DNA of 64,000 nt from the human T2T-CHM13v2.0 reference genome, Homo sapiens. Under the pieces are notes generated by a model that worked only from the letters and a program-made list of their open reading frames with translations, searched no databases and had not been told where the DNA came from. The first letter of the stretch is position 1. Each line of letters begins with the position of its first letter. Shown here in pieces: positions 1-37,333 of the stretch. The stretch lies in the NCBI RefSeq assembly GCF_009914755.1, contig NC_060933.1; one strand, given 5' to 3'. The translations under genes and the position numbers were made by a program.

Positions 1-989
1 GGTGTGCTCACTTTACCTTGAGACTGCACTCCCTGCAGACAAGGGAGGGGCGGTGGACACCTGTGAAGCGGGGAAACGGAGGAACAGCGTTTTCTGGGAA
101 GAGTGAGTGTCACAGCCAGAGGGCTCACACTGGGTGTCAGGTGACTTTTTCCCTCCCTCGCTTTACATCAAGGCCCCAGCCCAAATCCTAGGGGCACAAG
201 ATTCTCAACAGCCTTGTCTGCACCCAGGTATTAAATGTATGTTTCTTGGAGATGCCCAGAGACCAAGTGTCCCCAAGCATCCAGCTGAGCTTGCCAGCCC
301 TTGCACCCCAGCCTTTGGCCCTAAGGAGGTCCACGCAGCTCAGCACTGTCAACCATGGGGCACTGCTCTGATGCACTGGGGCTAGAGGCAGAGATGACAC
401 ACCCAGGGCCTTCTTCAGAGTCCGGGGAGTCCAGGGAGAAACATGAACGCTGCATTGGATTTTGCAACTTTGCTGGCAACTCATTCGCTTTCATCCACAA
501 ACACCTTGGAGCCTCCCCTGTGGCCAGCAGTGGGCTGGAGACTGGAAAGCTGGCAAAAGCTGCCCTGCCATTTCCACCATGCCTCAGGACAGGGGCAGAT
601 GGATGCCTCCAGGAGCCTGAGTGCTGATGCAGGTGCACCCCAAAGGGACCTGGCCCTGCCCGATCCAGGGAAGACTCCTTGGAGGAGGCGCGCTTGGAGC
701 CGCGTGCTGAGTGAGGAGTAGGAGTGTGGAGAGGCAGCCAGGCCCCTTTGCCTGACCAGGGATCCAGGTGTCCCTCGAAGACACAGAGGCTGCCCCTGGT
801 GTGGGTTAGAGTTAGGGATGGATGCCTAAAAAGTACAAGAAGAAAGAGGAACAAGTCCAGGATGTTTGAGCCACCTATCAGATATCTTACCGTGTGTGGC
901 ACTGTGGGCCCGTGGCTGTTGCGAGGCCATGGGGGAAAGTTGGAGACATAGAGAAGGAACAAGAAGCAGAAACACAAATGCTCTGGTGG

Positions 990-1328
990 GTGATTCTCAC
1001 CGGAGCGGGGACCCTACTGTGACCTGCGCATGTGAGGGATCTGGGTTGCAAGCTCCTGATGAGAATCTAATGCCTGATGATCTGTCGCTGTCTCCCATAC
1101 CCCCTAGATGGGACAGTCCAGTTGCAGGAAAATGAGCTCAGGGCTCCCACCGATTCTACACTATGGTGAGTTGTAGAATTCTTCCATTATATATGACAAT
1201 GGAATCATAGTAGAAATAAAGTGCACAATCCAAGGAATGCGCGTAAATCATCCTGAAACCACACCCGTCTACCCTGCTCCGTGGAAAAATTGTCTTCCAT
1301 GAAACCAGTCCCTGGTGCCAAAAAGGTT
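990..1328 (+). mobile_element. MER1A-like hAT DNA transposon, partial copy
   Basis: GAGAATCTAATGCCTGATGATCTG...CCCTGGTGCCAAAAAGGTT matches the MER1 consensus from memory; it is the reverse complement of part of the copy at 1838-2344. Confidence 0.8.
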
Positions 1329-1389
1329 AAAATATGAAGACAGTGGAGATAGCGGTTCCTCCAACCCAGCATGCTCCTGGCTGCAGAAA

Positions 1390-1490
1390 GCGCGGTGGAG
1401 ATGGGTGAAGCACAGTGGAGATGGGGGAAGTGAGGTGGAGATGGGTGAAGCGCAGTGGAGATGAGTGAAGCGTGGTGGAGATGGGTGAGG
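1390..1490. repeat. Short minisatellite, ~20-bp unit GTGGAGATGGGTGAAGCGCA x5
   Basis: Five diverged tandem copies visible. Confidence 0.85.
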
Positions 1491-1837
1491 GTGATCGTGT
1501 AGATTGGCCAATGGTTTCTGCTCAGCTTCAGGGGAATCAGTGTTTTCTCTAGGTCAAGTTCAGCAGCCTTGGAGTTTCCACGTGCTGATCATCAGGAACC
1601 CTGGTGAACATGTAGGTTGAGATGGCGCTGTGCCTGTGAGTGAATGTCAGGTGCTGCCATCTTCACTGGCCAGGGTCCTCGGTGCCTGTAGTGGGGTCAG
1701 CAGAGGCTGGCAGTGGTCGGGGCAGGTGGACCATGAGCACCTCCCTGCGCTGGTCAGCAGCAGGAGTCCATCAAGATGAATGGAGCAGAGGGGGTTCGCT
1801 CTCCTTGGCAGAGACATCGCAGTGCATTTCTTGGGAG

Positions 1838-2344
1838 CAGTGGCTCCAACCTTTTTAGCACCAGGAATCGGTTTCATGGAAGACAATTTTCCCATGGCCC
1901 GGGGGATGAAGGATGGTTTCAGGATAATTCAAGCATGTTTCATTTGCTGTGCACTTTATTTCTATTATTATTACATTGTAATGTGTCATGAAATATGATG
2001 CAGTGCACTGTCATGTAGAATCAGTGGGAGCCATGAGCTTGTTTTCCTGCAAGTGGACGGTCCCATCTGGGGGTGATGGGAGACAATGACAGGTCATCGG
2101 GCATTCGATTCCTATAAGGGGCATGCAACCTGGATCCCTGCCCGTGCAGTTCACAGTAGGGTGTGCGCTCCTATGAGAATCTAATGGCCCCGCTGATCCG
2201 ACAGGAGGCTCCGGCGGCCATGCAGGCAATGGGGACTGGCTGTAAACAGATGAAGCTTCGCTGGCTCACCTGCCGCTCACCTCCTGCTTCGTGGCCTGGT
2301 TCCTAACAGGCCATGGACTGGTGCCGTGGGGGTTGGGACCCCTG
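1838..2344 (-). mobile_element. MER1A-like hAT DNA transposon, near full length
   Basis: CAG...CTG termini; 8-bp target-site duplication CTTGGGAG (1830-1837) / CTTGGAAG (2345-2352). Confidence 0.85.
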
Positions 2345-3654
2345 CTTGGAAGAACCCAGCTAAGAAGAGTCAGAAATGGGTCTGGGGGCAGCAATGACTT
2401 TCTCCGATTTTTCCTTCCAGGGACCCCACTGGGAACTGCACAGTATTTAAGACACTGCTGGTGAAAACAGACAACTCTACCACGTACAGAATCTGTGAGT
2501 AGCTGCCAGGCAGCAGAGCCACAGTCCCAGCAGCTCCCACACTCCAGCATCTGGCCACCAGCCCTGGGGGCACGCGGACACCCATCCAGCAGCTCCTGGC
2601 AGGCTGTGCTGACTCACCTCCGCCAGCCTCCAGGGCAGGCACTCAGCCCTCCTGGGGTCCTGTGCCCTCCGCCTGATCCCCACTTATTACACAGGGAAAG
2701 AAGGACTCAGCCCATCCCTGGGTCCCATGGACAGCATTTCCTGGGCCCGTGGTCCCTCCCTGGCATTTTGGAGTCATTTACAAGGCACGTTCTCCTCGCC
2801 GGGCCCTGGCAGAGTCCAGTGGCCTCTGTGGCATCCCGGAAGCTGTGTTTTCATCAGCCCTGCAGAGAAGCTGTCCAAGGCCAGCATCTGACCCCTCTGA
2901 CCTCCGTCAGCCAGAGCGGAGGAAGCAGCATCTGGGGGGGACTCTCACCGGCCTGGAGATGCACTTGGGGCTCACCCACTCACTGCCACCATCCTGCCTC
3001 CCCGAGTGCTCTCAGCTTCTGACTCGGGGCCCCTCCCATTTCCTATAGAGGGACAGAAATTATTAGCATTTCAGACTCATAGACTCAACTTAAAAAGGGC
3101 GCAACCACCCAGCTCACAAGAGCACATCCTCCGCCCCTCCCAGCGGGGGAGCAGGAGGTCTGCATCTGTCCGTGGAGACGGACCACTACTACATCATGAA
3201 CACCCGGGATGAGAGGAGGGACCCGGCCGTGCACACAATGAACCTGACAGGCGCGTGTCCACGCTGATGTCACGGGGCCTGTGGACGGGGGCCTGTGGAC
3301 GGGGGCGCTGCCCCTTGGAGTCCTCCCTAACTCAGCCATGCCCAGGTCTCTGTGGCAATGTGGGTGTAGCCCCCACGGTTCCCTCTGGCTCTCGCTGGGC
3401 CACACCTGGCGGGTGGCGTCCAAGGAGACAGGCAAGGGCTCCGTGATGTGGGACCCTGGGCTGCTGGCCTGGGAAGCAGCATCTCTACCAGGAGAGGCTG
3501 GGTCAAGGAGTCATAGGGGAAGTGAGGGGTACATGGAAGACCCCCTCCTCCAGGATGAGTGTCTGCATGGTTGGCAGAACAGGCTGGGAGACGGGGTCCC
3601 TCTCAGGAGGGCCTGGGGGCTGATTCTGGGGAAGGATCATTGACAGCAGGACCC

Positions 3655-3765
3655 CTGATTCCCCACCTTACCCCACCCACCCCCACCACCCCCCCTTACC
3701 CCACCACCCTCGCCACCCCCACCTTACCCCACCCACCACCTTATCCCACCCACCCCCACCACCCC
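3655..3765. repeat. C-rich low-complexity repeat (CCCCACC/CCTTACCCCA); G4-prone on - strand
   Basis: Directly visible. Confidence 0.85.
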
Positions 3766-4801
3766 TGCAATCAAATGTCCCTCAAGGAGTAGGTGCGGCA
3801 GTGGGGCAGGGCATCCCCAAGCCCAGGAGAGCCCTTCTCTGCTCTGTAGAGGGGCCTGGTAGGACCCCTTCCTATGGAGACTTCAGGGAAGGAGAAGAGA
3901 ACCACCCAGGGTGCTGTCAGCCACACAGGAGGCCCCTCTGCTCAGGTCCCAGATATACTCAGGCCACTTTTCCAGCCTGGAGCTGGGCTGGCAAGGGCTT
4001 CTTCCAAGGCCTCTTCTTAGCCAGAGCCAGCTCGGGTGTCACCCAGAGTCCTGGGCTCACCCTTGGGGCCTTGGCTCTCCTGCTCCATGGTTTGGCCTGG
4101 GGTTGGGGCTGCTACATATGTAGACAGGTCCCGGGGACAGCAGTGCAAGTCCTCTCTGAGGCCAGAGGCCCTGGGAGACCTGTCAGCATCCGGTCTGAAG
4201 AGTGGGGCCCTGCTCCCCTGCCCCACGTGGGCCTGGGGACCCTGCCTCTCCCGACTCCCTACCCCATTTTGCCTGCAGGCCACACCCTGCATGAAAACCC
4301 AGAAGCCCTGATGATCTTAGAAGCGTTTATAGAAAGCCAAAACATAAGCAAAGGCAAGATCTTTACCCCCACTCACCTTGGTAATGAGCACATTTTCCTG
4401 CTTTTCTCCGGACGTTCATTTCCCATGGGGATGAAGGGCTGCAGCTGACACTGAGCCGGGACACTCCGTGTACACTGGGGAAGCCTCAGCATCCTGGGGA
4501 GGAAGTGACCCCCTGCCTGTCTTTCTCTCTAGATTCCTGCGTGGTCGGCTGTAACTGAGGTGAGTGCCACAAGGCCTCTGCGTGTGTTCAGAGTGTCCAC
4601 ACCAGACTCCGGCCGGACTCATGGGCCCTGGGACTCCGCAGCCCTCGACCTTGGCAGCCTCCTTGCCTGCGGGTGCTTGAATGCCACGCAGCATCCGACG
4701 CATCCCACAACCTTGAGTCTGCTATGAGTCAAGTGTGGTCGCTGTAGATAAGGAGGAAAAAAGATCATGAAAAAGAACAACAACAACAAAAAATCACTCA
4801 T

Positions 4802-5528
<727 letters not shown>

Positions 5529-5944
5529 TCAGTAGGAGCTCCAGGGCATGGCTGGTCTCCCAGCCACACGGGAAGCCACAGGATCCCCATGGGACATCCC
5601 CAGCCACGTGCCACACTCAGTAACCACCCGTGGGCTTGTGTGCAAATCCCTGAAGTCAGTGATGGCTCAAATGTCGTCTCTGCCACCGTGGAGGTTGGCC
5701 ATGGGGGAAAGGTGACGGGGGCAGAAGGGTGAGGGCTCCAAGTGGCTCGAGGAAGGGGCCATGGTGTGAGCAGGGGCACGGGCGGGCAGTCAAGGAGCTG
5801 GGAAGGGCCAGCCAGTCCTGCTCTGGAGCCTCCGGGAGGAGCCAGCGCTGCGGACACCTTGGCTGTAGCCAGGGAGGCTCACTTTGGACTTCCAACCTCC
5901 ACACCTGTCAGAGGCCACGAGTGTTTAGCCATTAAAGAAACCTC

Positions 5945-6175
5945 CAGGGGCTGCGGTGACAAATGACCACAGACTCAGGAGCTGAACACAACGCACATGC
6001 ATTGTCTCACAATTCTGGAGTCAAAAGTCTAGAAACAGTCGGTGGGGCTGGTTCCTTCTGGAGACTTCTGGGAAGGGGAGAAGCCGCTTTCTTGGCTTTC
6101 CCAGTTTCTGGAGTGGCTGCATCCTGCACTCTCGGCCCCGCTATGCCACCAAGGCCTCCGTTTCTGTAGCCTCTG
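5945..6175. mobile_element. MLT1-type MaLR LTR fragment
   Basis: GGCTGCGGTGACAAATGACCACAGACT...TCTCACAATTCTGGAG...AAGTCTAGAAA resembles MLT1. Confidence 0.6.
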
Positions 6176-8736
6176 CTGCTCTCTGGCATCTGCACGGTTG
6201 CCCCGAAGCCGCTCCGCGACGGCCCTCCCTGAGCTGTGTAGTGCTGGGGGGAGGAGGCGTGGCCACAGTGGGCTGCATTCAGGATCTTGAAAGCCACTGA
6301 AGCCATGGCTGGCTCTCAGCCCTCAGGGAGCCTCTTCCCCTGCCTGGCACCAGGCTCCCAGAATCTGGGAGGCAGCCTCTTCATCTGGCTGCTGGTGGAG
6401 ACCTGAGCCCAGCCCCAGGGTCCTCAGTCCTGCCCCTTGTCCTCCGCAAGCTCTCACTACATCCTACCTATGTCCAGGGACCTCGGCCCATGCATCTGCC
6501 CAGATCCCAGCCTACCCGAGAGCATGCATCCCCAACTGGACCAGCACCCAACATAGCCGAGGGCTCCCCTGACCCACATAAACCTTGTTAATATTGCCTC
6601 TGTGGTCTCTGCTTGTTGCCTGAGGGGTGGAGGTGGGGGGTATCTGCTCAGACTGGCTCCAGCGCATCCTAAGGCCAGGCCCTTCCCAAAGGAGAGTGAA
6701 GCCAGGCCCCATGAGTCCCAGCTGGACAGGAAGGTACAGGCGGGACGGCCCTGGGTTAGGCAGAGTGGTCAGGATGGTTGCTCCAGATACATAGGAACCT
6801 CCAGCCAGGCGCTGGCGCATGGCAGTTGGTTCTCAAACATGCCCTGAATCCTAATTCATCGCCTTCCGCACACCACCCGGGAAAGCTGGCCATACAAGGG
6901 ACTGGGCCCTGCCTACACGGGGGGTGACCAGAGCCATGGTGGGGTGGGGACCTCCATGCAGCTCAAGGCCCCCTCAGTTGGCAGGGACCTGGTACTCCAT
7001 GGCCATGGTGGCCAGTGACTTCTCTCTCCTGGAGACCGTGGAGGCCCCTCTGAGGGTCAACATCACCTCGCTGTGGCCCACCCCCGAGGGCAACCTGGAG
7101 ATCATTCTGCACAGATGGTGGGTTCCTCGTCACTGGGGCTGGGGCTGGTGGGGGGCTCAGTCTCCCTGGGCCACGGGTCCAGGGCTGGGTGGGGTGGGTG
7201 GAGCTGGGGTTCAGCCCCAGGCATTTCCTGACATTCCTGAGGCTTCACTGTGGGCCTTCCATGGTGCCTTGGGCTGGGGTGGAGAATGGGGCTCAGGAGG
7301 TTCCCACTCCCCTTGGAGCCCCTGCCCAAGGGCTCTGGGCCAATGGACTGAAAACACAGCACAGCCCTGGTTCTGTCTTTGGGGAAGGCCAGGCTGGGCT
7401 GCTGTGGGCCGCAGCCCTTCTGGGACCTGCGCGGTTCCTGCCACGGCCCTGCCTGGGCCCCTGGAGTCAGGTGGCTGAGGAACTGGGGGTGTGGCCGTGA
7501 TGGGGCCAGGATCCTCATAAACACTATGTCAAAGCCTCACACAGTCAGGGTCAGTTTTGAGCTGCCTTGTGGCTCAAACACCTGGCCAATGGCCAGCTCT
7601 CCTGCCAGGTCCTGGCTGCCTCCGTCCGCCCCACTGTCCACCTGGCTGCCTGTTCCGCCTTGGAGGCCCCATTCAGGCTGATGCCTGACGACCTGGCTGG
7701 GCTGGGCGTGCTGTGTCCCCAGGTCACTTCCTGGAGTGCAGCCTCCATCCCTGCACTGGGCCCATGGACAGCCCCACCTCTGTGCGGTTTCTCAGGGAAC
7801 ACCACAGATGCGTTGAGAGGACCGTCCTCGCCCAGAAGACTGAGGACCCGGCTGTGTTCATGGTCGACCGTAGGTGCCCCAGCCCCGGGCCAGTTCCACA
7901 CTGTCCCCTGAAGCCTCTCCACAGAGCCAGAAGCCAGCAGGTTCCCTCCCCCACGGCTGGGTCCTGCTCTGAGCCTCGTCCCGTCCCAAAGGCTCCTGGC
8001 AGCTGAGCCTGGGGGTTGAGGCTGTGACCCACTTGGTGTAGGGACAGAGCCTATAGCATCTTGTTGACCTCAAACTCATCAGGACCTGAATCTGAGCTCA
8101 CAACCACAGGTCTGGGTTGGGAGCATTTTCTGTCACCTCGGGCAGGCAGGTGGCAACCTCCTTGCTCAGAAACCTGCAGCCTGTGGCCCAGCTGTCTTGG
8201 ATCCTTAAAAATAACCAAATTAACTAGACCTGCAGCTAGACACGCAGTAGATTGGCCTCTCAAATCTGGCACCTGCTTCTGGAACACCCTGGTCCTCACC
8301 GACCTCTTCCCCATCCCAGCAGCTCCCAGAGTCTCTTTCTGCTCCCCCAGTGCCCTGCCCCACGGGCATGGCCCACATCCCTGGCGGCCTCCCCCAACCT
8401 TGGCCTTAGCTGGAACACAAGCCAGGCCCCTGCTCCAGCAGGTGAGGCAGGGTCCAGTCTAATCTCCAGAGCTGTCCCTGCCACACATAGGCGGAACAAC
8501 CAGGCAGCCACATAGCCCCCCATGTCTGCAGTTCCTCACCTGCAAGCAGGGACCCCCACTCAAGCTCACGTCTATCTGAGAAGGGGAGGCTGCAAGGGGC
8601 TGGAGCAGACATGGCTCTGTTTCTTTCCTCCATTCTTTGATGTCTGTGCACAGCTCCAACCTCCAGACTGAAACCGAGCTCCAGCTCATGAGCCTTCCCA
8701 GGCCTGCTGGGCACCTGCCCTGAGAGGGAGGCACCA

Positions 8737-8770
8737 TGAATGAATGAATGAATGAATGAATGAATGAATG
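8737..8770. repeat. (TGAA)n microsatellite
   Basis: Directly visible. Confidence 0.95.
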
Positions 8771-11227
8771 TCACCTCCGGGTCACGGAGGAGTAGAATTC
8801 ATCCAAGGAGGGCAGTAAATCTGGAGAACGGCTTCGTCAGAGCCGCAGTTTGGAAGAACTACCTTTGCAGCCTTTTGCCCACGCGGGGGTGCAGAAGGGG
8901 CTGGTCAGTGCCAAGGTGGTGCTGCCCGGACCCGCCCCTCCATCCATAGAATATGTCGTGCTGCAGTGGTGAGCGGCCAGCAGCCATCGCAAAGGTGGAG
9001 ACTGAGCGTCAAGGAGAGGTCCAGGAAGGAGGGAGGCCGGCTGCCCAGGTGCAGGGAGCGGCTACTCCGTGGTCCCGTGAATGGCTGCTGTCAGCCCAGC
9101 ACCCAGGAACAGAGGCCATAGGGAGGGACTCAGATGTGATTTCTGGTGTCTGTTTTTGTATTTTTTTCCAGGTCGCGGGACAAGAAAGATCTCTGTGTTG
9201 GACACAGACTAGACGACAGGAGCTACGTGTTCTTCTGCATGGGAACCACCACACCCAGTGCTGACCACCACACGATGTGCCAGTACCTGGGGACGACACA
9301 GGGGCCCCCGGGCTTCATCTGAACAACCCCAAATCCGGTCCTTTTCTCAGTGGGAGGAGAGAGGGGCCGCCCTGCCCACCTCCCCAGGCCCCATTCGCCG
9401 GAGGTTGCCTGGTGTTGGTGTCGGAAACCAGAAGCCACCAGGGAAGATGTTGCGGTAGGGGGGATTTTAATGGGGGCGGGGGGCAGGGACTAGTGTCAAA
9501 TTTGGGTCAGGCCAAAGGGGGCCGATGTGGTAAACAGGTCTGGCAGCAAGTGGAGGGGCCACATCTTACAAGCAGATAGAACTGGCCAATATTAGTCCAT
9601 CAACCTTCATTAATGGAGATTTAAGTTGGATCTCAAATGTGAATGCAGCTTTAAAAGGTGATAGTCTAACCCCGGTAAAGCTCATGGTGCTGTTGCCTCT
9701 GTTCTTAAGGGTCCCCAGGGTTCCTAAATGGACCATTGGTGTTGGGGCTATAGATACATCCCCTGTTCTATAAATCCGCCCTCCTGGATTGCGGGAGACA
9801 TCAGTGGGACTTCAGGGGAGGCAGGAACTTTTCGGAAAAAATATAGCCACATAGGCACAGCCCTTCCCCATGTTTCTGAGCGCACCATTTCCTCTGGGGT
9901 CACACAGGTGTCTTCTTGATCAGCCTCAGCTGTGCTTGGTGAGAGCCAGGCACCGGGGGAGGCAGGCACTATGCTCTCCTTCCGTGACACTGTAGACACC
10001 ATCCTGAGCCCCAGTGCTGCCCAGAGCGGGCCCCAGTGCTGCCCAGAGCGGAGCAAAGGGGGCCAGGCCGAGGAGCGGGAGTTGGGGACAGGGAATCTAC
10101 AGGCCAGGAGCCCTAGAGACCGCCCTGGGGACCTGCTCCAGACCAAACTCTGCCTGACCTCGGAGCACTGGGTCCTCCTTCCCTGCCCTCCCTCCCCAGG
10201 CAGGGTCCTTGGAGCTCCCAGGGCCCAGGACTGAGCCAGCGTCCCCCACAGCCAGGACCCTAGAGGCAGACGACAAGGTCATGGAGGAATTCATCAGCTT
10301 TCTCAGGACCCTGCCCGTGCACATGTGGATCTTCCTGGACGTTACCCAGGCGGAAGGTGAGCTCCACCCAAGACAGGCCCAGCCTCGGCTGGAGGAGAAG
10401 CCACCACTGTCCCAGCCCAAGCCCCCCGCTGGCCCTGTAGGACTCAGGGCAGCACCCGTCACTCCTCGTTGGCCCCTCCCATGTTCTCCCCAGGGCTCCC
10501 CTGGGGATGCAAAGGCACCCTGAGGTGGGGTCCCGTCCCCCTCCCATCATCCCCCAACCTCTGGCCCTGGGACTGCTGTGTCCCCAGCTAAGTCTCCCCT
10601 CCCACTGACGCCCCCACTGCCCCCTCTCCTCCCACAGAACAGTGCCGCGTCTAGATGAGCTCCTGCTCAGTCCTGCCTCCTGGGTAATGTACCAGCCCCG
10701 CCCATAGCCTGAGGTCGCCTTTCTGGGCTCCTGGAAGAGACCCCACTGTGTCCATTCCCCAGGGCTGACCCTGAGCGATGGGCTGGAATCCTGGGGCATC
10801 TGGAAAAGCCCAGCTGGCCATGTGCCCGCGTCTCTGGGGTTGGCTGCTCCAGATGCCATTTCCTGTGTCCTGGGCACAGGATGAGGCCTTCTCCTCCAGG
10901 GTGGGGGTGAGTGAGGGTGGGGGGCTCAGGGGAGGGTGGGCCTGGGATCATAAGCCCCTCCGGCCTGAAGCTGGGGGTGAGGTGGGGGCTCCTCTCACAT
11001 AAGCAGGGGTCCCTCACTCTAGGACCTGCAGGGGCAGGGTCCTAGAGTCACAGGGGAGCCCTTTTGTGCACATCAGGTCCTGGAGCCTCGGCCCCTGTGC
11101 GGACGGAGAGGATGTCGCCTTCCTGGGAGGGACAAGGAGGCTGAAGACCAAGGCACGTTTCCTGGGACGCTGGGACCTCCTGGGTCTCAGCCTGGGGTCT
11201 CCTGTCCTAAGCTGTCCCTCTTTGAAC

Positions 11228-24578: not shown

Positions 24579-26501
24579 TGCTAGTTGTTTTCAGTGAACA
24601 TGTGTTCTCTCCAGGCCACAAGGGGGTCACCGTTCTGAGGCTGGAGGTGGCAGCCTCACAGGGTCCCCGTGGAACGGCTCCCAGCTGGCCAGGAAGGTGT
24701 GCAGATGGGGTGGGGCAGGAATAGCCCACAGCAGAGCAGTGGGGCTTCAGGGACTGGCTGCGGCTGCCACCCCACAGGCAGGCACGGGTCCGGTCTTCTC
24801 CTCCTCCACTGGGACCCTGGCCTGCAGAAGGCCCCTTACCACGCCGACAGGGGCCTGTGAAATGCAAACCCAGCTGTATCCAGCAACTACTCCCACCACG
24901 CAGGTGAGCCTGGCTTCTGCCCATGGGCCAGGAGCTCACGGGGCCTGGCCCAGCTACTTGGTGACTTCATGGAGCACCACCCACCTTCACTGAGCCCCCA
25001 GAGCCCTGGGCCTCTGGGACCCACCCCGGCGGGGCTCGCTCGAGTAGGGGGCTGGGCTGTCGCTGGCTCCGCTGGGTCCCTCACACATGCTGTTCCCACC
25101 TCTGGAACACTGTTTCTGACTACTCCTGTCACCTCGCCCCACTCAGAAAGGCGGACAGCTGTCACAGCCCCACCCCCACCTGGGTAGCTCTGTGTGGGGC
25201 CCCAGCTGCGCTGCAAGTTCCAGAAGCCTCTATGGACCTCACGCGTGGCCATCTCTCCCCATCCTGGAGGTGCACGCGGTGTGTGCCAGGTGAGCTGATG
25301 TCTACAGAGCTGCCACCTGCCACTCTGCTGTCCGCCTGCATCACCAGGTTTCTGGGCCTTTCCTCCCATTTATCCTTCAGATGAACGCAGTCGCTCTCCT
25401 CCTTCCCGCCTTTTCTCTACTCCGAAAGCCCCCTTGCTTCAGTGTCTGGGATCTGATGGGTAAAGTCTGATTTCACACTCAGCCCTTTGTGGTACCACAG
25501 ACCGTGCAAGGCCTGGTTCTGTCGGCCCAGCCCCACCCTCAGCTCTCGGCCAGGCCCCTGAGCACTTTGCTGACCTTTATCAAGGTTGCTTCTGGGAACA
25601 AGCGTGTGGCTTTCTGAGGAGAATGTGAACATTCCCACAACATCCAGAGAATCTCGAGTTTCCTCTCGTGCACAGAAGGAAACGCGTACTCACGGTCACA
25701 CAAACAGAAATGTGTCTGTGGACATGCATCACACGTGTGTGCTCACACTCATGCACACGCACAGGCTCAGGCACGCGTGCTCACAGGCGCACATGTGTGC
25801 ACACAGGTCAGAGTAGCAGGAGGGCTGCCAGAGCCCCCCAGGCAGCCATTGCGGGGACACAACAAGGCCTCTGCTCAGCTCCCCTGACAGCCACTGCCCC
25901 ACCTGTCCGGCTGCCATGGTCCAGAGACCCAGCTCACCCACGTGGTGACAGCCATTCTATGTCCCCAAAGCAGCTGGAAGCTGCTTGCGCGTGGAGACTG
26001 GGAGACAGGGTCCAAGGCCCCAGGGGCAAAAGTACGGCCTCATCTCCAGTGGTTCTTAAGCTCGTGGTGGCCACAGGCTCTTGGGAGTCTAGGGAAAGCC
26101 ATGGCCTCTTCCCAGAGAAACATGGAGAACCCCCACCAAGCGACCCGCAGTGGGGCTGAGATTTCAGGGCCCTCAGGTGTGCCCTGGTCTAGATCTCTCC
26201 CAGGCCCATCCCAGTCCCGTGAGGGCAGCCCAGCCCCGAGACCCCGCCTGACCTTATCAGCAGAAGCTGATGTCACCCGAGGCTGGCAGCGTCTGGAAGG
26301 CCCTGGCTCGCCACATGTTTTGATTCCGGCGGGTGGTGCAAGGTGGGGAGGGAGCTGGTGGGTGAGGAGCCTGGGCCTATTCTCTTTGGGCCACCCTGCC
26401 TCTGAAGCAGCGCATAGAAGCACCTGGGCGAAGCCATTTATCCACCCTGCAGCCCCATGTCCCCGCAGCCCCATGTCCCCAAATGGCCATAATCAGGGAC
26501 G

Positions 26502-29500
26502 ATGAGGCTGTGGCCCCGCAGCATGGGGCTGGGCCTGGCCTGAGCCCTGCGGTATGACAGCCAGACTTCCATCCTGAGCAGGAGGTGCTCCAGGGGTTCT
26601 GGGGGCAGGGTGTGTGGGGGCAGCCGATGTTCCCGAGGCCTGTCCTGGAACCCTGCCACCCCACAGCACACTGTGCACTCCATGGCACTCTGCAGGCGGA
26701 GATGCTGAGGCACAGGCCTCCTGCTACACGGGGAGGTGGCAGTGAGGGGACAGCTGAGTCAGGCCCGTCGTGGGCACTGCTCTGAGAACTCACAGGGCTC
26801 TGAACGTGCTGACAGAGGGAGACCTGCAGAATGATACCCCTGGAGAGGGCAGGAACCACGGGATACTGACCCTCACTCCTCTGGGCTCCCCTCAGGGTGT
26901 GGGCCACCTGAGACCTCCCCACGGGCTGGCCAGGGTCCAAGCAGGGCTCAGAACCTGGGGCCCTTGGCCAGGCCTGCCTACCGTGTTCCCCACAGCCACA
27001 GACCCAGCAGCCCCAGGTAGGAGAAGATGCAGGGAAACCCCACCACCCCCTCAGCGTCACCCGTGGCCCAAAAGGGGCCACACCAGGCTGGCCAGCCCAG
27101 CTGGGGAGGGGGTTCAGAGTCAGCGGCCCCCAAGACCCCGGCCCAGAACATGACATGAGAGAAAGTGCACACCCACCCTGTGCACACCCGGCCCCCATCG
27201 CTGCTGCAGCCCAGGACCTGGGGACGAGGGGCTCATCAGGGCTGCCACGGGCTGGACACCAGGCCTTGCTGCCTCCAGGTGGAGGGGCCATGACATTCCG
27301 TGAAACTCGGTGTCACCAAGGACCATCACTGAGGGCGGAGGCGCCCCCGCGTCTGTGTTTCATGTCAGACATCAAACTCCTGGAAAACGGCAGCTCGAAG
27401 ACCTATTCCTGCGTGCGACAGGGGCTCTGATGGCCGCCCACCCCGCCCCCAGGTCTCCACTTCCGCTCCCCCTCCTCCCCTCGGAGAGCCCAGGGCTGAA
27501 TCCCCGCACCCAACCCCTTCCCCCTGGGCTTCCCTATTGCTTATGGCTCCCCCCAAGCCCTGAGCCCCCAGGGGGGCCTTGATAACAGGGCTCAGGGCCG
27601 CCCGTCTGAGCTGCTCCCCTGGAAGGTGGGATGGCAGCCCTCGGCTCCTCCTGGGTGAACCCAAGGCCGGCGACCTATTCACGCCCCAGGTGACCCTAAC
27701 AGCGCCAGCTCTAGCAGGCACGCCTCACAAGGAAGGCTGCTTCTGTTTTAGAAAAAACAAAGTGCGTGAAAGAATTCTACATGGGAGAAGACACCCAGGG
27801 GACTACACTTTGATCATGAGTAGAAGTCACCGTGGCTCCCAGGTGGCTCACATGGGGGTTGGCGTGAGCTAGTTGTTGATGTAAATGTGACCTGGTGGGA
27901 AGGTTCCAGAAGGGGCAGTGAGGTGAGGTGGGGCAGGAATGAGGAGATGACACCACAGAAATTCAAAAACCCCGAGCAGTGGCTCCACAGCTGTGCGTCT
28001 CAGACTCCCAGGGTCCCGCACACTCGGGCAGGTCCCCTCCCCACCAGCTGAAAGTCTGAGACAGGCGGGGTGGTTGGGGGGAGGCCGCTGCGGGGAGGGG
28101 CACGCCAGGGTCTGGGGTGCACATAAGATTTCCCTTTGGGAATAAAAGTCACGGCTGGAAGTTTGAGGAACAGAGGGAGGTGAGCTTCACGCTCCTGGGT
28201 GCTCCATGGACGGGCGTCCTGTTAAGCCAGGGCCTGGGCTGGGTGAGCCTGAGGCAGAGAGGCACTGAAGGCAGGATTTGCTAGAGTTAGGAAGGTCCTT
28301 CCGCCCCCTCTTCCATGCGTCTGGCCTGCCATCCTTCTGACCTAGAGAGACACAGAGAAGGAGAGACAGAGAGAGAGAGAAACAGAGATGGAGAGACAGA
28401 GAGAGACAGACAGAGAGACAGAGATGGGGAGACAGAAAGAGACAGACAGAGAGACAGTGATGGAGAGACAGAGGCAGACAGAGAGATAGAGATGGAGAGA
28501 CAGAGACAGGCAGAAAGATGGACAGAGGCAGAGAGATAGAGATGGAGAGACAGAGACAGGCAGAAAGAGATAGAGGCAGACAGACAGAGATGGAGAGGCA
28601 GAGACAGACAGAGAGACAGAGATGGAGAGACAGAGACAGACAGAGATGGAGATAGACAGAGGCAGACAGAGAGACAGAGATGGAGAGACAGAGACAGACA
28701 GACGGAGAGACAGAGGCAGACAGAGATGGAAAGACAGAGACAGAGAGACAGAGATGGAGAGACAGAGAAAAAGAGAGACAGAGATGGAGAGACAGAGAGA
28801 GACAGACAGAGAGACAGAGAAAAACAGAGAGAGAGACAGAGATGGAGAGACAAAGAGAGACAGACAGAGAGACAGAGACACATGACGTCAGTGGTCTGGG
28901 TCTGTGCCTGTGGTTTGATCCTGGGCTCCAGGTGCCCATCGAGGACTGAGCTGTGAGGGAGATGGGGGTCGGGGCTGAGCCAGCTGGGAGGGGCAGGGCA
29001 CACTGGGGTGGGAGGTGGCTGGTGGATCCCCACATCTGTGAGCTGTTCCATTTTCTGTCATAGAGAAGGGCAAAAACGATCTCACTCTCATGGCTCTGAC
29101 TTTGCCATGACTGACACGGAAAATCACAAGGGAGGCAGCCTCCCTGTGGCAGAGGCCTGAGGTAGGTGCTGCTCGACTCCTGGACAGGAGCACCCATACC
29201 GGGACAGTGGAAGGAGAAAAGGAACAGAGTCCAGGGGGGTGGGCTGTGAGGGTCAGGGGCTGGAGCCCCCTCCCACGGGCTGGTCTCCCTCCATGGAGAT
29301 GCCAGGGTACCCTCTTCACCTGCCATCCTGATCACAGATGGTTTTGGTCACCTGTGACCTCCCTGGCACCCCACCCCCTCAACCCCATGCACCACCTGGT
29401 GCAGCCCTGGTGGCCGCAGAAATGGCTGTGTGGGTGAGCGTGGGCAGCAGGTACATGAGACCCACACACCTACAGAAGGCATCAGGAAGGGACAGCGTTG

Positions 29501-29522
29501 GGGGCCACTTGTGTAGCCTCGG
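26502..29522 (+). pseudogene. Lipocalin locus C: degenerate unprocessed lipocalin pseudogene
   Basis: Exon1-like 26502-26581 (GLGLA*A../QPDFHPEQ); exon2 27279-~27412 (VEGP*HSVKLGVT../TITEGG../LCFMSDIKLLENGS; GxW Trp is TGA at 27291-27293); exon3 27752-~27815 (KCVKEFYMGE../PGDYT; donor ATGAGT); exon4 29064-29161 (KGKNDLTLMA/DFAMTDTENHKGGSLPVAEA*; GT donor); exon5 tentative 29420-29522. Confidence 0.8.
28343..28880. repeat. (GAGACA/GACAGA/GATGGA)n purine-rich compound repeat
   Basis: Directly visible; lies in intron 3 of locus C. Confidence 0.95.
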
Positions 29523-30169
29523 GTCTTGCTGGGACCTGAACTGTAGCAGGCTATGGGATGACCACACTCCCCAATAGGAAATTCACCCTGACAGCACGTG
29601 TGCCAAGAGGCAGCCAGGAGACCAGGGGCCGTCTGGGGTGGGTTTAGCTGGTCCAGGGCTCTGCAGAGTCTGGGACTGGGCTACTGCTGCTGTGGGCAGG
29701 GCTGGGGGGTCACTGAGCTCCAGCAGTGACTTCTGCTTTCTGCTTTAATCCACACCAAGGTGCACAAACTCCAGCTGTGGGTGAATTGACCCCTGGCCCT
29801 GTCCACATCTGCTGCTCTGGGCCAGCGGCCTTTTCCACCAGAAGGGATGGGGTCTTGCTCCAAGGATGGCCCTCCCGGTGCAGTCCCCAGTCCACTGGGC
29901 CAGAGGCCAATGGGCGGTGCTGGTTAAAGATGGCTGGTCCAGGGCCTGGCCTGTCAGAACATCCAGGTAGGAAGGGAATCTACAGACCGAGGAAGACCCT
30001 ACTCTCTCTACCCAGGTGTGCAGGGCTCGCAGAGCAGGTGGGGACCCTCCAGAAGCTCCCACTGAGGTCTCAGGAAGAGCCACAGCCTCCTCCCACCCCA
30101 GATGGCATGAAACTGGCACCTGGTCTTGGTGCCCCCTGCCTTGTCTCCAGTCACCCCTTCTGTCTGCCC

Positions 30170-30702
30170 CCTGCACACACAGCCCTGCACACATATACAC
30201 TTGCACACTCACACACCCCTGCACTCACACTCCTGACTTCACACTTGCACACACATCTGCACTCACACCTGCACACACCCCTGTACACACACACCCCTGC
30301 ACTCACACACTTGCACATACATCTGCACTCACACCCCTGCATTCACACCCCTGACCTCACATTTGCACACACACCTGCACACACACGTGCACACTCACAC
30401 ACTTGCACATGCACACCCCTGCATTCACATCCCTGCACTCACACATGCTTGCACACACACCCTACACTCACACACACCTGCATACACACACCCCTGCACT
30501 CACACACTTGCATACACACCCCTGCACTCACACACACACCCCTACACTCACACACACCCCTGCACTCACACACACACCCCTGCACTCACACACACCCCTG
30601 CACTCACACACATCTGCACACACACCCCTGCACTCGCTTCACATACCCCTGTACACACATACACTTACACACTCACACGTACCTGCACTCATCCCTGCAC
30701 AC
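30170..30702. repeat. CA-rich compound repeat (CACACCCCTGCACTCA)n
   Basis: Directly visible. Confidence 0.95.
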
Positions 30703-32620: not shown

Positions 32621-35600
32621 ATGGCCCTGGAGAAAGGCCCGCTCCTGCTGCTGGCCCTTGGCCTGGGCCTGGCGGGTGCCCAGAAGGCTCTGGAAGAGGT
32701 ACCGGTACAGCCGGGCTTCAATGCGCAGAAGGTACGTGTCATGGGTCCAGTCCCCAGACTCAGGCCTGGAACAACGGCTTGAGTGTCACATTGAGGAGGT
32801 GCAGGGGGTGGGGCAGACAGGGGGGTGCCGGGGTTCAGGTCCTGCCTGACCCTGCAGCAGCTCTGGAGGGTGAGCTGCACCTGGGTCCAACCCAGGCGGG
32901 AGCGGGCTCTGTCCTCCCGCGCAGCCAGCACCAGCGGCCACTGATTAACCTCGGGGCCTTTCCCTCTCTCCGGGCTGCGGAAGCTACAGCACAACAGCAG
33001 GTCGCAGGAGAAGGCTGCAGGGCGGCAGCCGGAGAAACAGAGCGCCCAGACACTGGGCCCAGGCAGGGAGCAGGGTCCCAGGGGACCCAGCCGAGCAGGG
33101 GAGGGGTTCACCCTGGGTGACACGAAGAGGCCAACCCTGGATACAGGGAGGGTCCCAGCTCCTCCTCCCTGTGTGGCCCCTGGGGTCCTGGTGCTGCTGG
33201 TGGGAGTGCAGGGATGGAGGGACACCCGGCACAGCACCAGACCCTCCCCTCTGCCCTCCCTGACCAGGGGAACAGAGCTTGGACCAGGCAGAGGCAGGGG
33301 TGCAGGGCTGAGGGAAGTGGGGGCAGCAAGTGGGGAAGGGGACTGGACAGAGACCTGAGACAAGGGGACGGGAGGTGACTCTTCCCAAGAAGTAAGCACA
33401 GCTTATCCTCCACCTGGACCCACAGATGGGCATTTGCCAATAGAGACCAGGAAGGGGGAACGTTTGCCAGTGCAGCCCCCTGGGAGGGGCACGACCACCT
33501 GCTGACCATGCTCAGTGCCGAACCTGGGGCCTGAGAGCCCAGAGGGTGGCCTGCTGGGGCTACACAGCCGGGCACTAGCCAGCCTCTCCTGTCCCGGCCC
33601 ACGCCCCTGCAGGTGGAGGGGGTGCCACACAGCCGGGCACTAGCCGGCCTCTCCCGACCCGGCCCACACCCCTGCATGTGGAGGGAGTGCCACACAGCCG
33701 GGCGCTAGCTGGCCTCCTCTGCCCCGGCCCACACCCCTGCAGGTGGAGGGGCGCTGGCTCACCCTGCAGCTGGCAGCCAACCACGCAGACCTGGTCTCCC
33801 CGGCCGACCCCCTGAGGCTCGCTCTCCACTCCATCCGGACCAGGGACGGCGGGGACGTGGACTTCGTGCTGTTCTGGAAGTAAGCACGGCTCCTGCCGCC
33901 CCTCTCAGGCGCTCATTCTCAGACCTAGGGACCCCCAAGCAACAGTGACAGTGTTCAGAGCCAGAGGAACACATCACACCAAGCTGAGGCCCAAGACCCC
34001 GCTCCAAGAGGGGTAAGCTCAGAAGCTGCCAGAGGCAGGTGGGCAGGAAACACACAGCCCGGCCCCGGAGGCAACGTCCAGTCCCAGCAGACACGCCCAC
34101 TGGGCCACGGGCCTGTGTTCCAGCTGTGAAGGAAGCCCGGGTCTGGAGTTTTAAATGTGCGATCTCCAGTGTTTGAAAGTTGCCTCATTCCCAACATCCC
34201 TCTCCCAAGGACCACAGCCACCCTGGGCCCACACCCCTTCCGGCCCCGATGTAAGCCAGGGAATCCCGAGGACGGCTGCACTGTCAGCAAAAGAAAATCG
34301 GCCCTGGGGACAAGCTACGCTGAGCGCAGTGACACCGACAACAAGCTTCCGTTATTCCGCCTGCACCCACAGCTCCGAAGGCAGTTAGACCCACATCCTA
34401 GCAGACGCTCAGTCGTAGACACACCGCACGGTGGCCTGCAGAGTCCCAGGGGTTGGTGGGCACCCACCCCAAATGAGAAACTGAAGACCCCGGAGCAAGG
34501 GGCATGGGAGTGAGGGGGGCTCTGTCTATGCACGGAGGCAGGAGCATGGGGGCGAGGGGCCTCTGTCTATGCACAGAGCCAGAGCAAGTGGGGACAGGCA
34601 GGACAGTCAGAGTCCCAGTCCCCAAAACCTGGAGCTCAGAGCCAAAGCCAGACTGGGACCAATCTGTTCCAGGAGGCTTGGTGTCATCCCAGAAGTGAGG
34701 AAGACTCCACTTCGTCACTCCAGTCCCATCCCCAGCACCCCCTGGGCATCGCCACCTCCTGGCTGCATGACCCTGGTGCCTGTGCCAGGACGAGGCTGCC
34801 CTTGAGTCTGGGGAGCTGACGCCCCGGGGAGAACAGGAGGGCTCTCAGCTGGTGGCAGCCACAGTGTCCCCTGGTGGAGAGCCCTGAGAGGGCCACCACG
34901 TCCTGGGAAAGGGCAACAGGACACAGTTGGAGGCTGACCAGGCCCTGGTTCCTTTCTCTTTTCCCAGGGGAGAAGGGGTGTGTAAAGAAACAAACATCAC
35001 CGTCCATCCAACCCAGTTGCAAGGCCAGTACCAAGGCTCATGTGAGTGCCCCTGTCCGGGATCTGGGCTGGGCTCTGAGTGGGGAGGGGCGAGCAAGGGA
35101 CGCTCGGATGTCCAGTCCCGGCCGCAACACTCAGAAGGGGTTGTCGGCTTTGGGGGAAGACCGGGTGCTGGAAGGAAGCTGTGCATCCTCTTGGTGGCAT
35201 TGCAATGTCCACAGGGCATGGGGGGGTCCAGGGCCTGGGGGACGGAGGAGAGAGGCATCGTGCATCAGCTGGCCCGGGGTCTCCAACAGTCGAGGGCGGC
35301 AGCATGCACGTATGCTTCGTCAGCACCGACTACAGCAACCTCATTCTTTACGTGCGCTTTGAGGATGATGAGATCACCAACCTGTGGGTGCTGCTGGGTA
35401 AGTGGCCAGCTCTCCCCAGCACTGGCAGGTGCAGTGCCTCAGACCCCAGACATGAGGGCGGAGCTGCTGGACACTCCCGGCTCTGTGCAGAGACTTGCTG
35501 TCCTGTCTGGGAGGGGGCCTTCTGTGCAGGGTGTTCTGAGGGCACAGGCAGCCTTGGGCCGAGACGCAGCTGAGCTCTTCCTCCGACACATGCCCCTCAG

Positions 35601-37333
35601 GGAGGGTGTCCCCACGCAGGACGTGCACTGCGGGCCTGCTACAAGGCGGGCACTGCTCTGGGCGCTGCACTGGGAGCTTGAATTATCAGTGGATAAAACT
35701 GAGAAAACACCTTCCTTGTCTTCCTCCTTATCAAGCAATGTCTCGGGGTCCTGGGGGGCTCCTGAAAGTAAAAGCACCATGAGAGAAGGGCTCGAAGGGC
35801 ACAGGGGACTGAGTGGGGGACATCGAGGGGCTGCAGTGTCCTGAAGACGAGGTGGAGATAGATGGGGCTGGGGGCATTTCAGGGCAGAGGATCAGCCGGA
35901 GCCCGAGCCCAGGATGGGGTGGGGGAGCGGGGCAGCAGCAGCCGAGAGGCCCCAGGGCCAAGAAGGTCGAGGGGTTGGGAGGGGTGGCACCAGGCCGGAA
36001 CTTGGGACTCTCTGGGGGTCTCCACTGAGGCAGGCCAGGCCTGACTTCCTCCTTCCAGGGGCATTTTACCTGCCGTGCTCAGAACAGACCTGTGTTTAGA
36101 GGAGGCAAGGTTGGGGCCGGTGCAATCAGAGCTGGCCGGGCCTGGGAGGTCGCAGAGGGGGTGCTGCCGTGGTCCGAAGAGCCCCCAGACTGTGTCGTGG
36201 CAACTTAGTGGTGGGGTGGCCGATGCCCAGGGCCTCTGCCTCCCCGTTGTTCTCCGCAGAGGAGGAGGAGGACAGAAAAGACAGAGGCTCCAGGCCTCAG
36301 CCCCTCACTGTCAGCCCCTCTGATTCCAGCGAGAAGAATGCTGGAGGACCCCAAATGGCTGGGAAGATACTTGGAGTACGTGGAGAAATTCCACCTGCAG
36401 AAAGCCCCGGTCTTCAACATAGATGGTGAGCACTGTCCCCCAGCCACATCCTGGAGCCGGACGGGAAGAGGGCCTGAGGGTCTGGGGCCTCGTCTTCCCA
36501 GCCAGCACCACTGAGGGTGTAGCCCATCCGCACTCCCCTTACGGCCAGGCCTGTGCCGGCTGCTTCAGGGGCTGCCGGATCTTACCAGCCCCACATGACA
36601 CAGTGATATGGGTCCAATGCCGTCTCCACTCTACAGATGTGGCTCAGAGACGTTCGGTAACAAGGCCAAGTTGCACAGCCAGGAGGAGGAGCTGGAAGGG
36701 ATCCAGATCTCCAGCCTCCTGAGCCAAGTGCCCAGCCAGCCTCTCCCCTCTGCTGCCTCCCAACGCATCATTCAGTCAATCAACAAGCACACGGGCCAGG
36801 CCTGTTCTGGGAGTTTGGGATTCACTTAGAACAAGACAGACACATCATCCAGCCCTAGTGCAGGTTACATTGCAGCAAGCATTGTCATTACCTGATTTGT
36901 TAGAGGCAAGTGCTATGGGGGTGGGAGTGGGGGCTAGAGCAAGGTTTGAGGAGCATGACCGTGCTGTGTGAGCACGGGCCGCCAGGGTGGGTGGCCCTGA
37001 GATGAGGTGAGGGAGGAAGGCTCCCTGGAAGATGGGTCATGCAGCTGGAACAGGAGCCAAGCAGAGGAGGGCAGGGATGAGATCCAAGGCTGAGAGGGGC
37101 AGTGGGTGGGGCCTTGTGGGCCCCCAAGGGGAGTGGGTTTCCACAGAGCACAGGGCCCTGGCAGGACACAGCCAACATGGGGAGGCAGAAGGCCCAGTGA
37201 TGCCAGTGAGGGATGGCTGTTTTGTGCTATGTGATTGATTTACTGATTGATTGATTTCAAAATGAATGAGTGAAGTCCTCAGAATCACCACCTTTTTCTT
37301 TTCTGCTCCACAGGCCCATGTCCCCCACCCTGA
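32621..37333 (+). CDS. Lipocalin locus D: intact 181-aa secreted lipocalin, join(32621-32731,33743-33879,34968-35041,35290-35397,36330-36425,37314-37333)
   Basis: Strong Kozak GGAGCCATGG; all five introns GT-AG with lipocalin phases 0,2,1,1,1; 546-nt open frame. Protein: MALEKGPLLLLALGLGLAGAQKALEEVPVQPGFNAQKVEGRWLTLQLAANHADLVSPADPLRLALHSIRTRDGGDVDFVLFWKGEGVCKETNITVHPTQLQGQYQGSFEGGSMHVCFVSTDYSNLILYVRFEDDEITNLWVLLARRMLEDPKWLGRYLEYVEKFHLQKAPVFNIDGPCPPP*. Has a signal peptide, GxW, TDY, SCR3 Arg and Cys88/Cys178. Confidence 0.92.
33562..33752 (+). repeat. 65-bp tandem repeat x3 spanning the intron1/exon2 junction of locus D
   Basis: Units start at 33562, 33627 and 33692; each ends CCCCTGCA(G/T)GTGGAGGG. 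Confidence 0.95.

What the first reader, a model, noticed from the sequence alone, without database searches (positions are those of the whole stretch)
26502..29522. A further, decayed lipocalin pseudogene (locus C) that I do not recall being annotated
Seen: ordered, acceptor-bounded exon relics: QPDFHPEQ (end of exon 1), VEGP*HSVKLG (GxW Trp converted to TGA), TITEGG, LCFMSDIKLLENGS, KCVKEFYMGE..PGDYT and KGKNDLTLMA..DFAMTDTEN. Exon 2 starts with the same CAG|GTGGAGGGG as locus D. There are multiple stops, frameshifts and dead donors. Inference: an older loss than locus A, and a distinct paralog likely intact in non-primate mammals.
Basis: partly seen in the sequence, partly recalled or inferred. 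Interest (0 to 1): 0.7.

Follow-up and report, generated by a model that had tools for sequence, protein, structure and literature searches.

The report
Human fossil of mouse lipocalin Lcn11
This unannotated stretch of human chromosome 9 is the broken remnant of Lcn11, a secreted protein abundant in mouse nose mucus and tears that likely carries odour molecules, and it was likely lost early in primate evolution, so it is an ordinary dead gene that explains why humans lack this one.

Summary
Confirmed and identified. Window 26502-29512 (+) holds five ordered exon relics, plus a probable sixth at 29756-29784. They belong to the human orthologue of rodent Lipocalin 11. A read-through of exon 2 hit only two squirrel lipocalins. 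Their family includes proteins named 'Lipocalin 11' and matches exons 1, 3, 4 and 5, which were not in the query: score 164 against 82±5.5 in shuffles. The relic sits inside the Lcn11 clade with 100/100 support. Fused gene models from other mammals give the human gene order. The gene is dead: three nonsense codons, about 12 indels (8 shift the frame) and several lost splice sites. From the ATG only 13 residues could be made. Divergence at conserved codons (about 0.15-0.17 per site, against 0-0.07 in intact orthologues) points to a loss likely before the monkey-ape radiation. Intact proteins were named from rodents, lagomorphs and afrotherians, but from no primate, dog, horse or pig. RefSeq has no row here, and my searches found no paper naming it. 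It is a new member of a known kind (unitary pseudogene), of modest interest.

The parts
26413..26419 (+). TATA-like word (CATAGAA) 89 nt before the ATG; possible decayed promoter element, inference only
   Evidence: weak, a six-letter pattern
26502..26581 (+). Exon 1 relic: ATG, signal-peptide remnant, TGA at codon 14 (26541), net -16 nt (frameshift), ends QPDFHPEQ; donor GT absent at the expected place (GA)
27279..27414 (+). Exon 2 relic: AG intact; GxW motif with Trp37 as TGA (27291); -2, +4 and -3 nt; donor reads GC (or a GT two bases earlier)
27752..27815 (+). Exon 3 relic: AG intact; conserved Cys83 codon kept (27763); 64 nt against 74 expected; donor reads AT
28344..28882 (.). AG-rich tandem repeat inside intron 3 (not part of the coding relic)
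29064..29161 (+). Exon 4 relic: AG and GT intact; -7 and -3 nt; TGA at His138 (29158)
29416..29512 (+). Exon 5 relic (helix region): no AG at the expected acceptor; +1 nt and about -6 nt; weak GT donor
29756..29784 (+). Probable exon 6 (R-C-T-N-S-S-C-G-stop, matching the family's short R-C tail); pyrimidine tract present, acceptor reads AC
   Evidence: 2 of 213 R/H-C sites in the window pass the same filter (filter chosen after seeing this site)

Best explanation
The locus is a disabled, intron-containing human copy of Lcn11 that cannot encode a lipocalin; its ancestor was likely a secreted odour-carrier of nasal mucus and tears, and it was likely inactivated before monkeys and apes diverged. 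Shown: the exon relics, their lesions, their place inside the Lcn11 clade, and the same gene order in fused gene models of other mammals. Predicted: the intact orthologue folds as an eight-stranded lipocalin barrel with a helix, most like salivary lipocalin, Can f 6, MUP and OBP3. Taken from papers: mouse LCN11 is abundant in nostrils, tears and olfactory tissue. Inferred: it binds or clears small hydrophobic volatiles. It was present in the placental ancestor, since Afrotheria and Glires both keep it. It was lost on the primate line under relaxed selection, perhaps buffered by LCN1 and LCN15, and has decayed neutrally since.
For: (1) The exon-2 read-through hit 2 of 2 candidates, both squirrel lipocalins (59%, E 1e-4); the atlas' top cluster for one of them is 'Lipocalin 11' (0.97). 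(2) The family holds records named 'Lipocalin 11' from Mus spicilegus, Nannospalax and Jaculus. (3) Exons not in the query score 164 against 82±5.5. (4) Of 184 proteins aligned to the relic, the top 36 are all Lcn11-type (best 269); the best of 134 other lipocalins scores 92, and the macaque LOC102723971-type protein P0005 scores 70. (5) Tree of 44 rows: relic inside the Lcn11 clade at 100/100, LOC102723971 in a separate 100/100 clade. (6) Synteny: P0026 and P0124 fuse LCN1/OBP2-type, Lcn11-type and LOC102723971-type parts in that order; P0028 fuses Lcn11-type and LOC102723971-type parts; P0025 fuses a PAEP/beta-lactoglobulin-type part before an Lcn11-type part. (7) Intron flanks match too: a marmot model that reads into intron 1 aligns TGPCCLQVEG with human TRPCCLQVEG. 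(8) Lesions; relic identity to 19 intact orthologues 42-56%. (9) The 2-kb DNA has one match in the genome, itself. (10) Orthologue model pLDDT 84.7, with Foldseek hits to salivary lipocalin, Can f 6 and MUP at E ~1e-13.
Against: Synteny rests on fused, partly unnamed gene predictions, not on genome alignments. Whole-genome protein searches are weak here: they missed the relic itself, so a second decayed copy is not excluded. Pfam gave nothing on the relic pieces, but also nothing on intact LOC102723971 exon 2. The date rests on 17 of 110 changed codon positions (95% range 0.10-0.28) and on recalled genome-wide branch lengths; this GC-rich subtelomere may evolve faster. No ligand or function test of LCN11 was found in the papers seen. 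Within the clade the relic's position is unresolved.
Confidence: 0.9

Rival explanations
1. A duplicated pseudogene of its neighbour LOC102723971 (or of LCN9 or PAEP), rather than a lost single-copy gene.
For: Exon 2 starts with the same ten bases as in LOC102723971, and exon 1 of the Lcn11 family resembles that gene's exon 1 (VPVQPGF). The two genes are neighbours.
Against: No DNA similarity to the rest of the window or to PAEP. LOC102723971-type proteins do not detect the relic by tblastn and score 70 or less against 269. They form a separate clade. One gene model carries both genes side by side (P0026). The likeness reflects an old tandem duplication, before the placental radiation.
Confidence: 0.03
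2. The orthology is right, but the loss is recent (catarrhine or ape line) and the heavy decay reflects a fast local mutation rate.
For: The relic exons are 58% G+C in a subtelomere where CpG decay is fast (established knowledge). The lower bound of the estimate, 0.08-0.10, is not far above a fast simian branch.
Against: About 12 indels in roughly 520 nt. Neighbouring PAEPP1 in the same region has indel-free exons 2, 3 and 5. No primate protein among 36 hits, although monkey and ape proteins of the neighbouring gene are well represented in the same database.
Confidence: 0.2
3. The locus has been reused as a non-coding transcript or regulatory element, so it is not simply neutral.
For: Acceptors 2-4 and donors 4-5 survive; the neighbourhood has lncRNAs.
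Against: RefSeq lists no transcript or functional element here (hub table). Surviving dinucleotides are expected by chance at this divergence.
Confidence: 0.07

Closest known systems
Mouse Lcn11 (Gm109) and its rodent, lagomorph and afrotherian orthologues
   Same: Same clade (100/100), 42-56% identity over the relic codons, same exon borders, same neighbours.
   Different: The human copy has three stops, about 12 indels and lost splice sites. [quoted passage not shown]
Human MUPP (9q32), a unitary lipocalin pseudogene
   Same: A lost secreted lipocalin tied to chemical signalling in rodents, with exons and introns kept (PMC2864566, PMC6381713; passages).
   Different: MUPP died by one human-specific splice change; this locus is far more decayed and likely died tens of millions of years earlier.
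PAEPP1 (locus A, same window)
   Same: Unprocessed lipocalin pseudogene in the same 9q34.3 cluster, same strand.
   Different: PAEPP1 is a duplicate of a living gene (79% DNA identity to PAEP) with few lesions; locus C has no living human counterpart found.
LOC102723971 (lipocalin 1-like; locus D)
   Same: Neighbour 3 kb downstream, same exon plan, similar exon 1 and start of exon 2.
   Different: Intact, in its own clade; sits beside Lcn11 as a separate gene in another mammal's gene model (P0026).

Membership tests
Lipocalin family (as a relic) | G-x-W motif of the first conserved region at the start of exon 2 | tested here: met
   G35-P36 present and Trp37 read as TGA at 27291, aligned to the invariant Trp of 19 of 19 orthologues; met in position, disabled in sequence
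Lipocalin family (as a relic) | Lipocalin exon plan: six coding exons, intron phases 0, 2, 1, 1, 1 | tested here: met
   Five exons at the borders of LOC102723971 and of read-through orthologue models; the sixth is only probable
Lipocalin family (as a relic) | Pfam PF00061 match | tested here: inconclusive
   0 of 7 relic pieces and P0019 do not match, but neither does intact LOC102723971 exon 2; the orthologue P0021 matches at E 5e-17
Lipocalin family (as a relic) | Eight-stranded barrel with C-terminal helix | not testable with these tools
   The relic makes no protein; the squirrel orthologue is predicted to have this fold
Lipocalin family (as a relic) | Conserved Cys pair (barrel to C-terminal tail) | tested here: inconclusive
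   Cys83 codon kept at 27763; the partner lies in the probable exon 6
Lcn11 orthology group | Best similarity and tree placement with Lcn11 rather than other lipocalins | tested here: met
   Top 36 of 184 proteins are Lcn11-type; clade support 100/100
Lcn11 orthology group | Conserved position between LCN1/OBP2/PAEP-type genes and the LOC102723971 orthologue | tested here: met
   Four fused gene models: P0025, P0026, P0028, P0124; no whole-genome alignment was possible
Unitary unprocessed pseudogene | Disabled reading frame with introns retained | tested here: met
   Three stops, eight frameshifts, introns of 697, 337, 1248 and 254 nt
Unitary unprocessed pseudogene | No functional counterpart elsewhere in the genome | tested here: inconclusive
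   DNA search: one match, itself. Two protein searches gave only weak hits at 26-49% identity, but also missed the relic. An intact copy at about 60% identity would probably have shown; a review says humans lack Lcn11
Unitary unprocessed pseudogene | Intact orthologue in other species | tested here: met
   Full-length open proteins from rodents and lagomorphs, partial ones from aardvark and golden mole
Unitary unprocessed pseudogene | No protein product in human tissue | not testable with these tools
   No RNA or proteome data on hand; first stop at codon 14

The most novel reading that the evidence does not exclude
Lcn11 is not a rodent invention but an ancient placental nasal and tear lipocalin, kept in Glires and Afrotheria and lost at least twice: near the root of primates (this undescribed human fossil) and across Laurasiatheria. 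That would make it an early marker of the primate retreat from chemical signalling, much older than the human MUP loss.
Probability: 0.5. Interest if true: 0.45.

Novelty: new member of a known kind. Interest (0 to 1): 0.33.

Why it matters
It fills an annotation gap: RefSeq has no row here, and reviews treat Lcn11 as mouse-only. It turns a 'missing orthologue' into a datable gene loss. In one human-mouse comparison Lcn11 was the most strongly olfactory-enriched mouse Lcn gene, while humans enrich LCN1 and LCN15 (PMC4982115, passages). The fossil gives the direction of that difference: loss on our line. It has no medical bearing and implies no new mechanism.

Tried and rejected
Pfam on short pieces: blank and without power. 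Sequence search of solved structures with two relic pieces: only chance hits or none. tblastn with 18 LOC102723971-type proteins: no signal at locus C. Aligning short pieces to a scaffold: unusable alignment, dropped. A first frameshift alignment with cheap free introns produced spurious short exons, so it was replaced by per-exon and chained scoring. Whole-genome protein search of the human assembly: too weak to see the relic. Rejected: chance; a processed pseudogene (introns are present); a duplicate of PAEP, LCN9 or LOC102723971; a Can f 2 or MUP identity (23-31% to the orthologue, outside the clade). P0183 was left out of the profile for its frameshifted tail, and three proteins over 600 aa were left out. 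One search ended exon 3 one base short. Codons next to breaks were left out of the dating count (139 codons kept). The Lcn11-type label was assigned by me. Earlier scan findings were not available.

Full report
OBSERVATION. The hub's RefSeq table has no row between PAEPP1 and LOC102723971. The neighbour's own family is too distant to see the relic: 18 LOC102723971-type proteins gave no tblastn signal there. Pfam was blank on 7 of 7 pieces, but also on an intact control exon.

IDENTIFICATION. A 47-residue read-through of exon 2 with X at the breaks returned 2 of 2 candidates, both squirrel lipocalins at 59%. The squirrel protein P0021 then matched exons 1, 3, 4 and 5, none of which was in the query. 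Its nearest atlas cluster is 'Lipocalin 11' (0.97; the name is automatic). A profile search returned 36 proteins among 2878 candidates: 26 rodent, 3 lagomorph, 2 afrotherian (golden mole, aardvark), 4 unnamed fragments, and one anteater protein at 29% that falls outside the clade. Three are named 'Lipocalin 11' (Mus spicilegus, Nannospalax, Jaculus). No named primate or laurasiatherian record appeared. The search needs shared words and covers 59-326 residues, so absence is suggestive, not proof.

SIGNIFICANCE AND SPECIFICITY. With a profile of 19 orthologues, an ordered five-exon score over 26400-29800 is 242. Sixty local shuffles give 106±5 (max 120). Sixty-eight non-overlapping tiles give 106±13; the highest are over LOC102723971 (181) and PAEPP1 (134), both true lipocalin loci. 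Without exon 2 the score is 164, against 82±5.5 in shuffles and at most 128.5 in other tiles. Of 184 proteins aligned to the relic, the top 36 are Lcn11-type; the best of 134 others scores 92 against 269 (the other 14 Lcn11-type rows, mostly short fragments, score below 92). In a 44-row maximum-likelihood tree the relic lies inside the Lcn11 clade (100/100), with a terminal branch of 0.72 against 0.07-0.51 for the other tips. Its place within the clade is unresolved.

SYNTENY. No mammalian genome other than the window's own could be read, but mis-fused gene models serve as a proxy. P0026 and P0124 run LCN1/OBP2-type, Lcn11-type, LOC102723971-type. P0028 runs Lcn11-type, LOC102723971-type. P0025 runs PAEP/beta-lactoglobulin-type, Lcn11-type, and its Lcn11 part groups with Afrotheria. 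The human order is LCN1, OBP2A, PAEP, PAEPP1, locus C, LOC102723971, GLT6D1, with all the lipocalins on one strand. Models that read into introns also match the human intron flanks (marmot P0179 before exon 2, P0135 after exon 4), as expected of an orthologue. The first 2 kb of the relic has one DNA match in the human genome, itself.

ANATOMY. Exon lengths against the squirrel plan are 80/96, 136/137, 64/74, 98/108 and 97/102 nt. Nonsense codons stand at Trp14 (26541), Trp37 of the GxW motif (27291) and His138 (29158). I count about 12 indels, 8 of them frameshifting. Those at the two ends of exon 3 and the in-frame loss in exon 5 are read from length accounting rather than from the aligner. 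Neighbouring events could merge, and in-frame ones could be lineage variation. Acceptors 2, 3, 4 and donors 4, 5 are kept; donors 1, 2, 3 read GA, GC, AT at the expected places; acceptor 5 has no AG there. A probable exon 6 (R-C-T-N-S-S-C-G-stop, behind a pyrimidine tract) lies at 29756-29784. Translation from the ATG would stop after 13 residues.

AGE. At columns at least 85% conserved among orthologues, the relic differs at 17 of 61 residues and at 17 of 110 fixed first or second codon positions (corrected 0.17; 95% range 0.10-0.28). For the mature part alone it is 14 of 103 (0.15; 0.08-0.26). Intact orthologues differ at 0-0.069. The excess of about 0.12-0.14 compares with genome-wide human branch lengths of about 0.05-0.06 to the simian ancestor and about 0.12 to the primate ancestor; these two figures are recalled and come from no call. 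A faster local rate would shorten the date; alignment bias would lengthen it. I put about 75% on a loss before the simian radiation. PAEPP1, 16 kb away, has indel-free exons 2, 3 and 5 and a lesion in exon 4 (its exon 1 was not found in the stretch tested).

WHAT WAS LOST. The squirrel orthologue is predicted as a lipocalin barrel with an N-terminal hydrophobic helix (pLDDT 84.7). Its closest folds are boar salivary lipocalin, Can f 6, MUP and rat OBP3 (TM about 0.8, 25-31% identity). Mouse LCN11 is among the main nostril lipocalins (PMC8476925), in the top 5% of nasal and tear proteins (PMC5807349, PMC5502090), and the most olfactory-enriched mouse Lcn gene, where humans enrich LCN1 and LCN15 (PMC4982115). 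All of these were seen as passages only. Odorant carriage or scavenging is therefore inferred; I saw no ligand or knockout study. Relaxed selection as the cause of loss is inference.

PRIOR DESCRIPTION. [quoted passage not shown] 'Lcn' or 'lipocalin' occurs 0 times in the main text and the one held supplement of the unitary-pseudogene catalogue PMC2864566, and 0 times in the main text of PMC2134963 (supplements not searched). Searches for 'Lcn11' (30 papers), 'lipocalin 11' (15), 'LCN11P' and locus identifiers (5 papers, none with LCN11P) and gene-loss terms were seen as listings, and no listing describes a human Lcn11 remnant. PMC5571153 (passages) reports unannotated LCN1/3/4-like sequences near ABO in primates; its figures were not visible. 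PMC8420045 (first quarter), PMC10157533 and PMC8474896 (passages) added nothing on this locus. Not checked: GENCODE, HGNC, TOGA tables, bioRxiv supplements, and the 2004 paper on the mouse chromosome 2 lipocalin cluster (recalled, not seen). Any of these may already record the loss.

VERDICT. Real and identified: an unannotated unitary pseudogene of Lcn11, likely dead since early primate evolution. It is ordinary in kind, and useful as an annotation and as a datable loss in chemical communication. Interest 0.33.

Noticed in passing
window 4279-4380 (+): An open, AG/GT-bounded stretch of about 102 nt resembling exon 5 of an LCN1/OBP2-type lipocalin (two proteins hit, E 0.003-0.014); not an annotated exon; no other exon of it was found in 1-6500.
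   Followed up: partly
L001:1570-1707 (G000:C9:147896909-147897046; outside the window, about 3.6 kb after LCN9): An open lipocalin exon 2 hit by 92 query proteins, best 63% to P0120; it looks like Can f 2 by eye (compare). No RefSeq row in the hub's neighbour list; no other exon seen in that 3.2-kb locus. Possibly another unannotated relic.
   Followed up: partly
window 6975-10364 (PAEPP1): Exons 2, 3 and 5 are indel-free against PAEP and keep their splice sites; exon 4 carries a frame break. Flanking DNA is 79% identical to PAEP, so the duplication is old but the loss looks recent.
   Followed up: partly
window 32621-37333 (LOC102723971): Intact 181-aa lipocalin with orthologues in monkeys, apes, bats and rhinoceros, and in a fused model beside Lcn11 (P0026). 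It forms its own long-branched clade and is mostly auto-named 'beta-lactoglobulin' or 'lipocalin 1-like', which the tree does not support.
   Followed up: partly
protein database: Lcn11 orthologues carry at least eight different automatic names (trichosurin-like, Can f 6-like, MUP-like, LCN9-like, Fel d 4-like, glycodelin and others), which hides the gene's spread outside mice.
   Followed up: no
window 26445-26480 and 30168-30633: A 16-nt tandem duplication just before the relic's ATG, and a CA-rich tandem repeat downstream of the relic.
   Followed up: no
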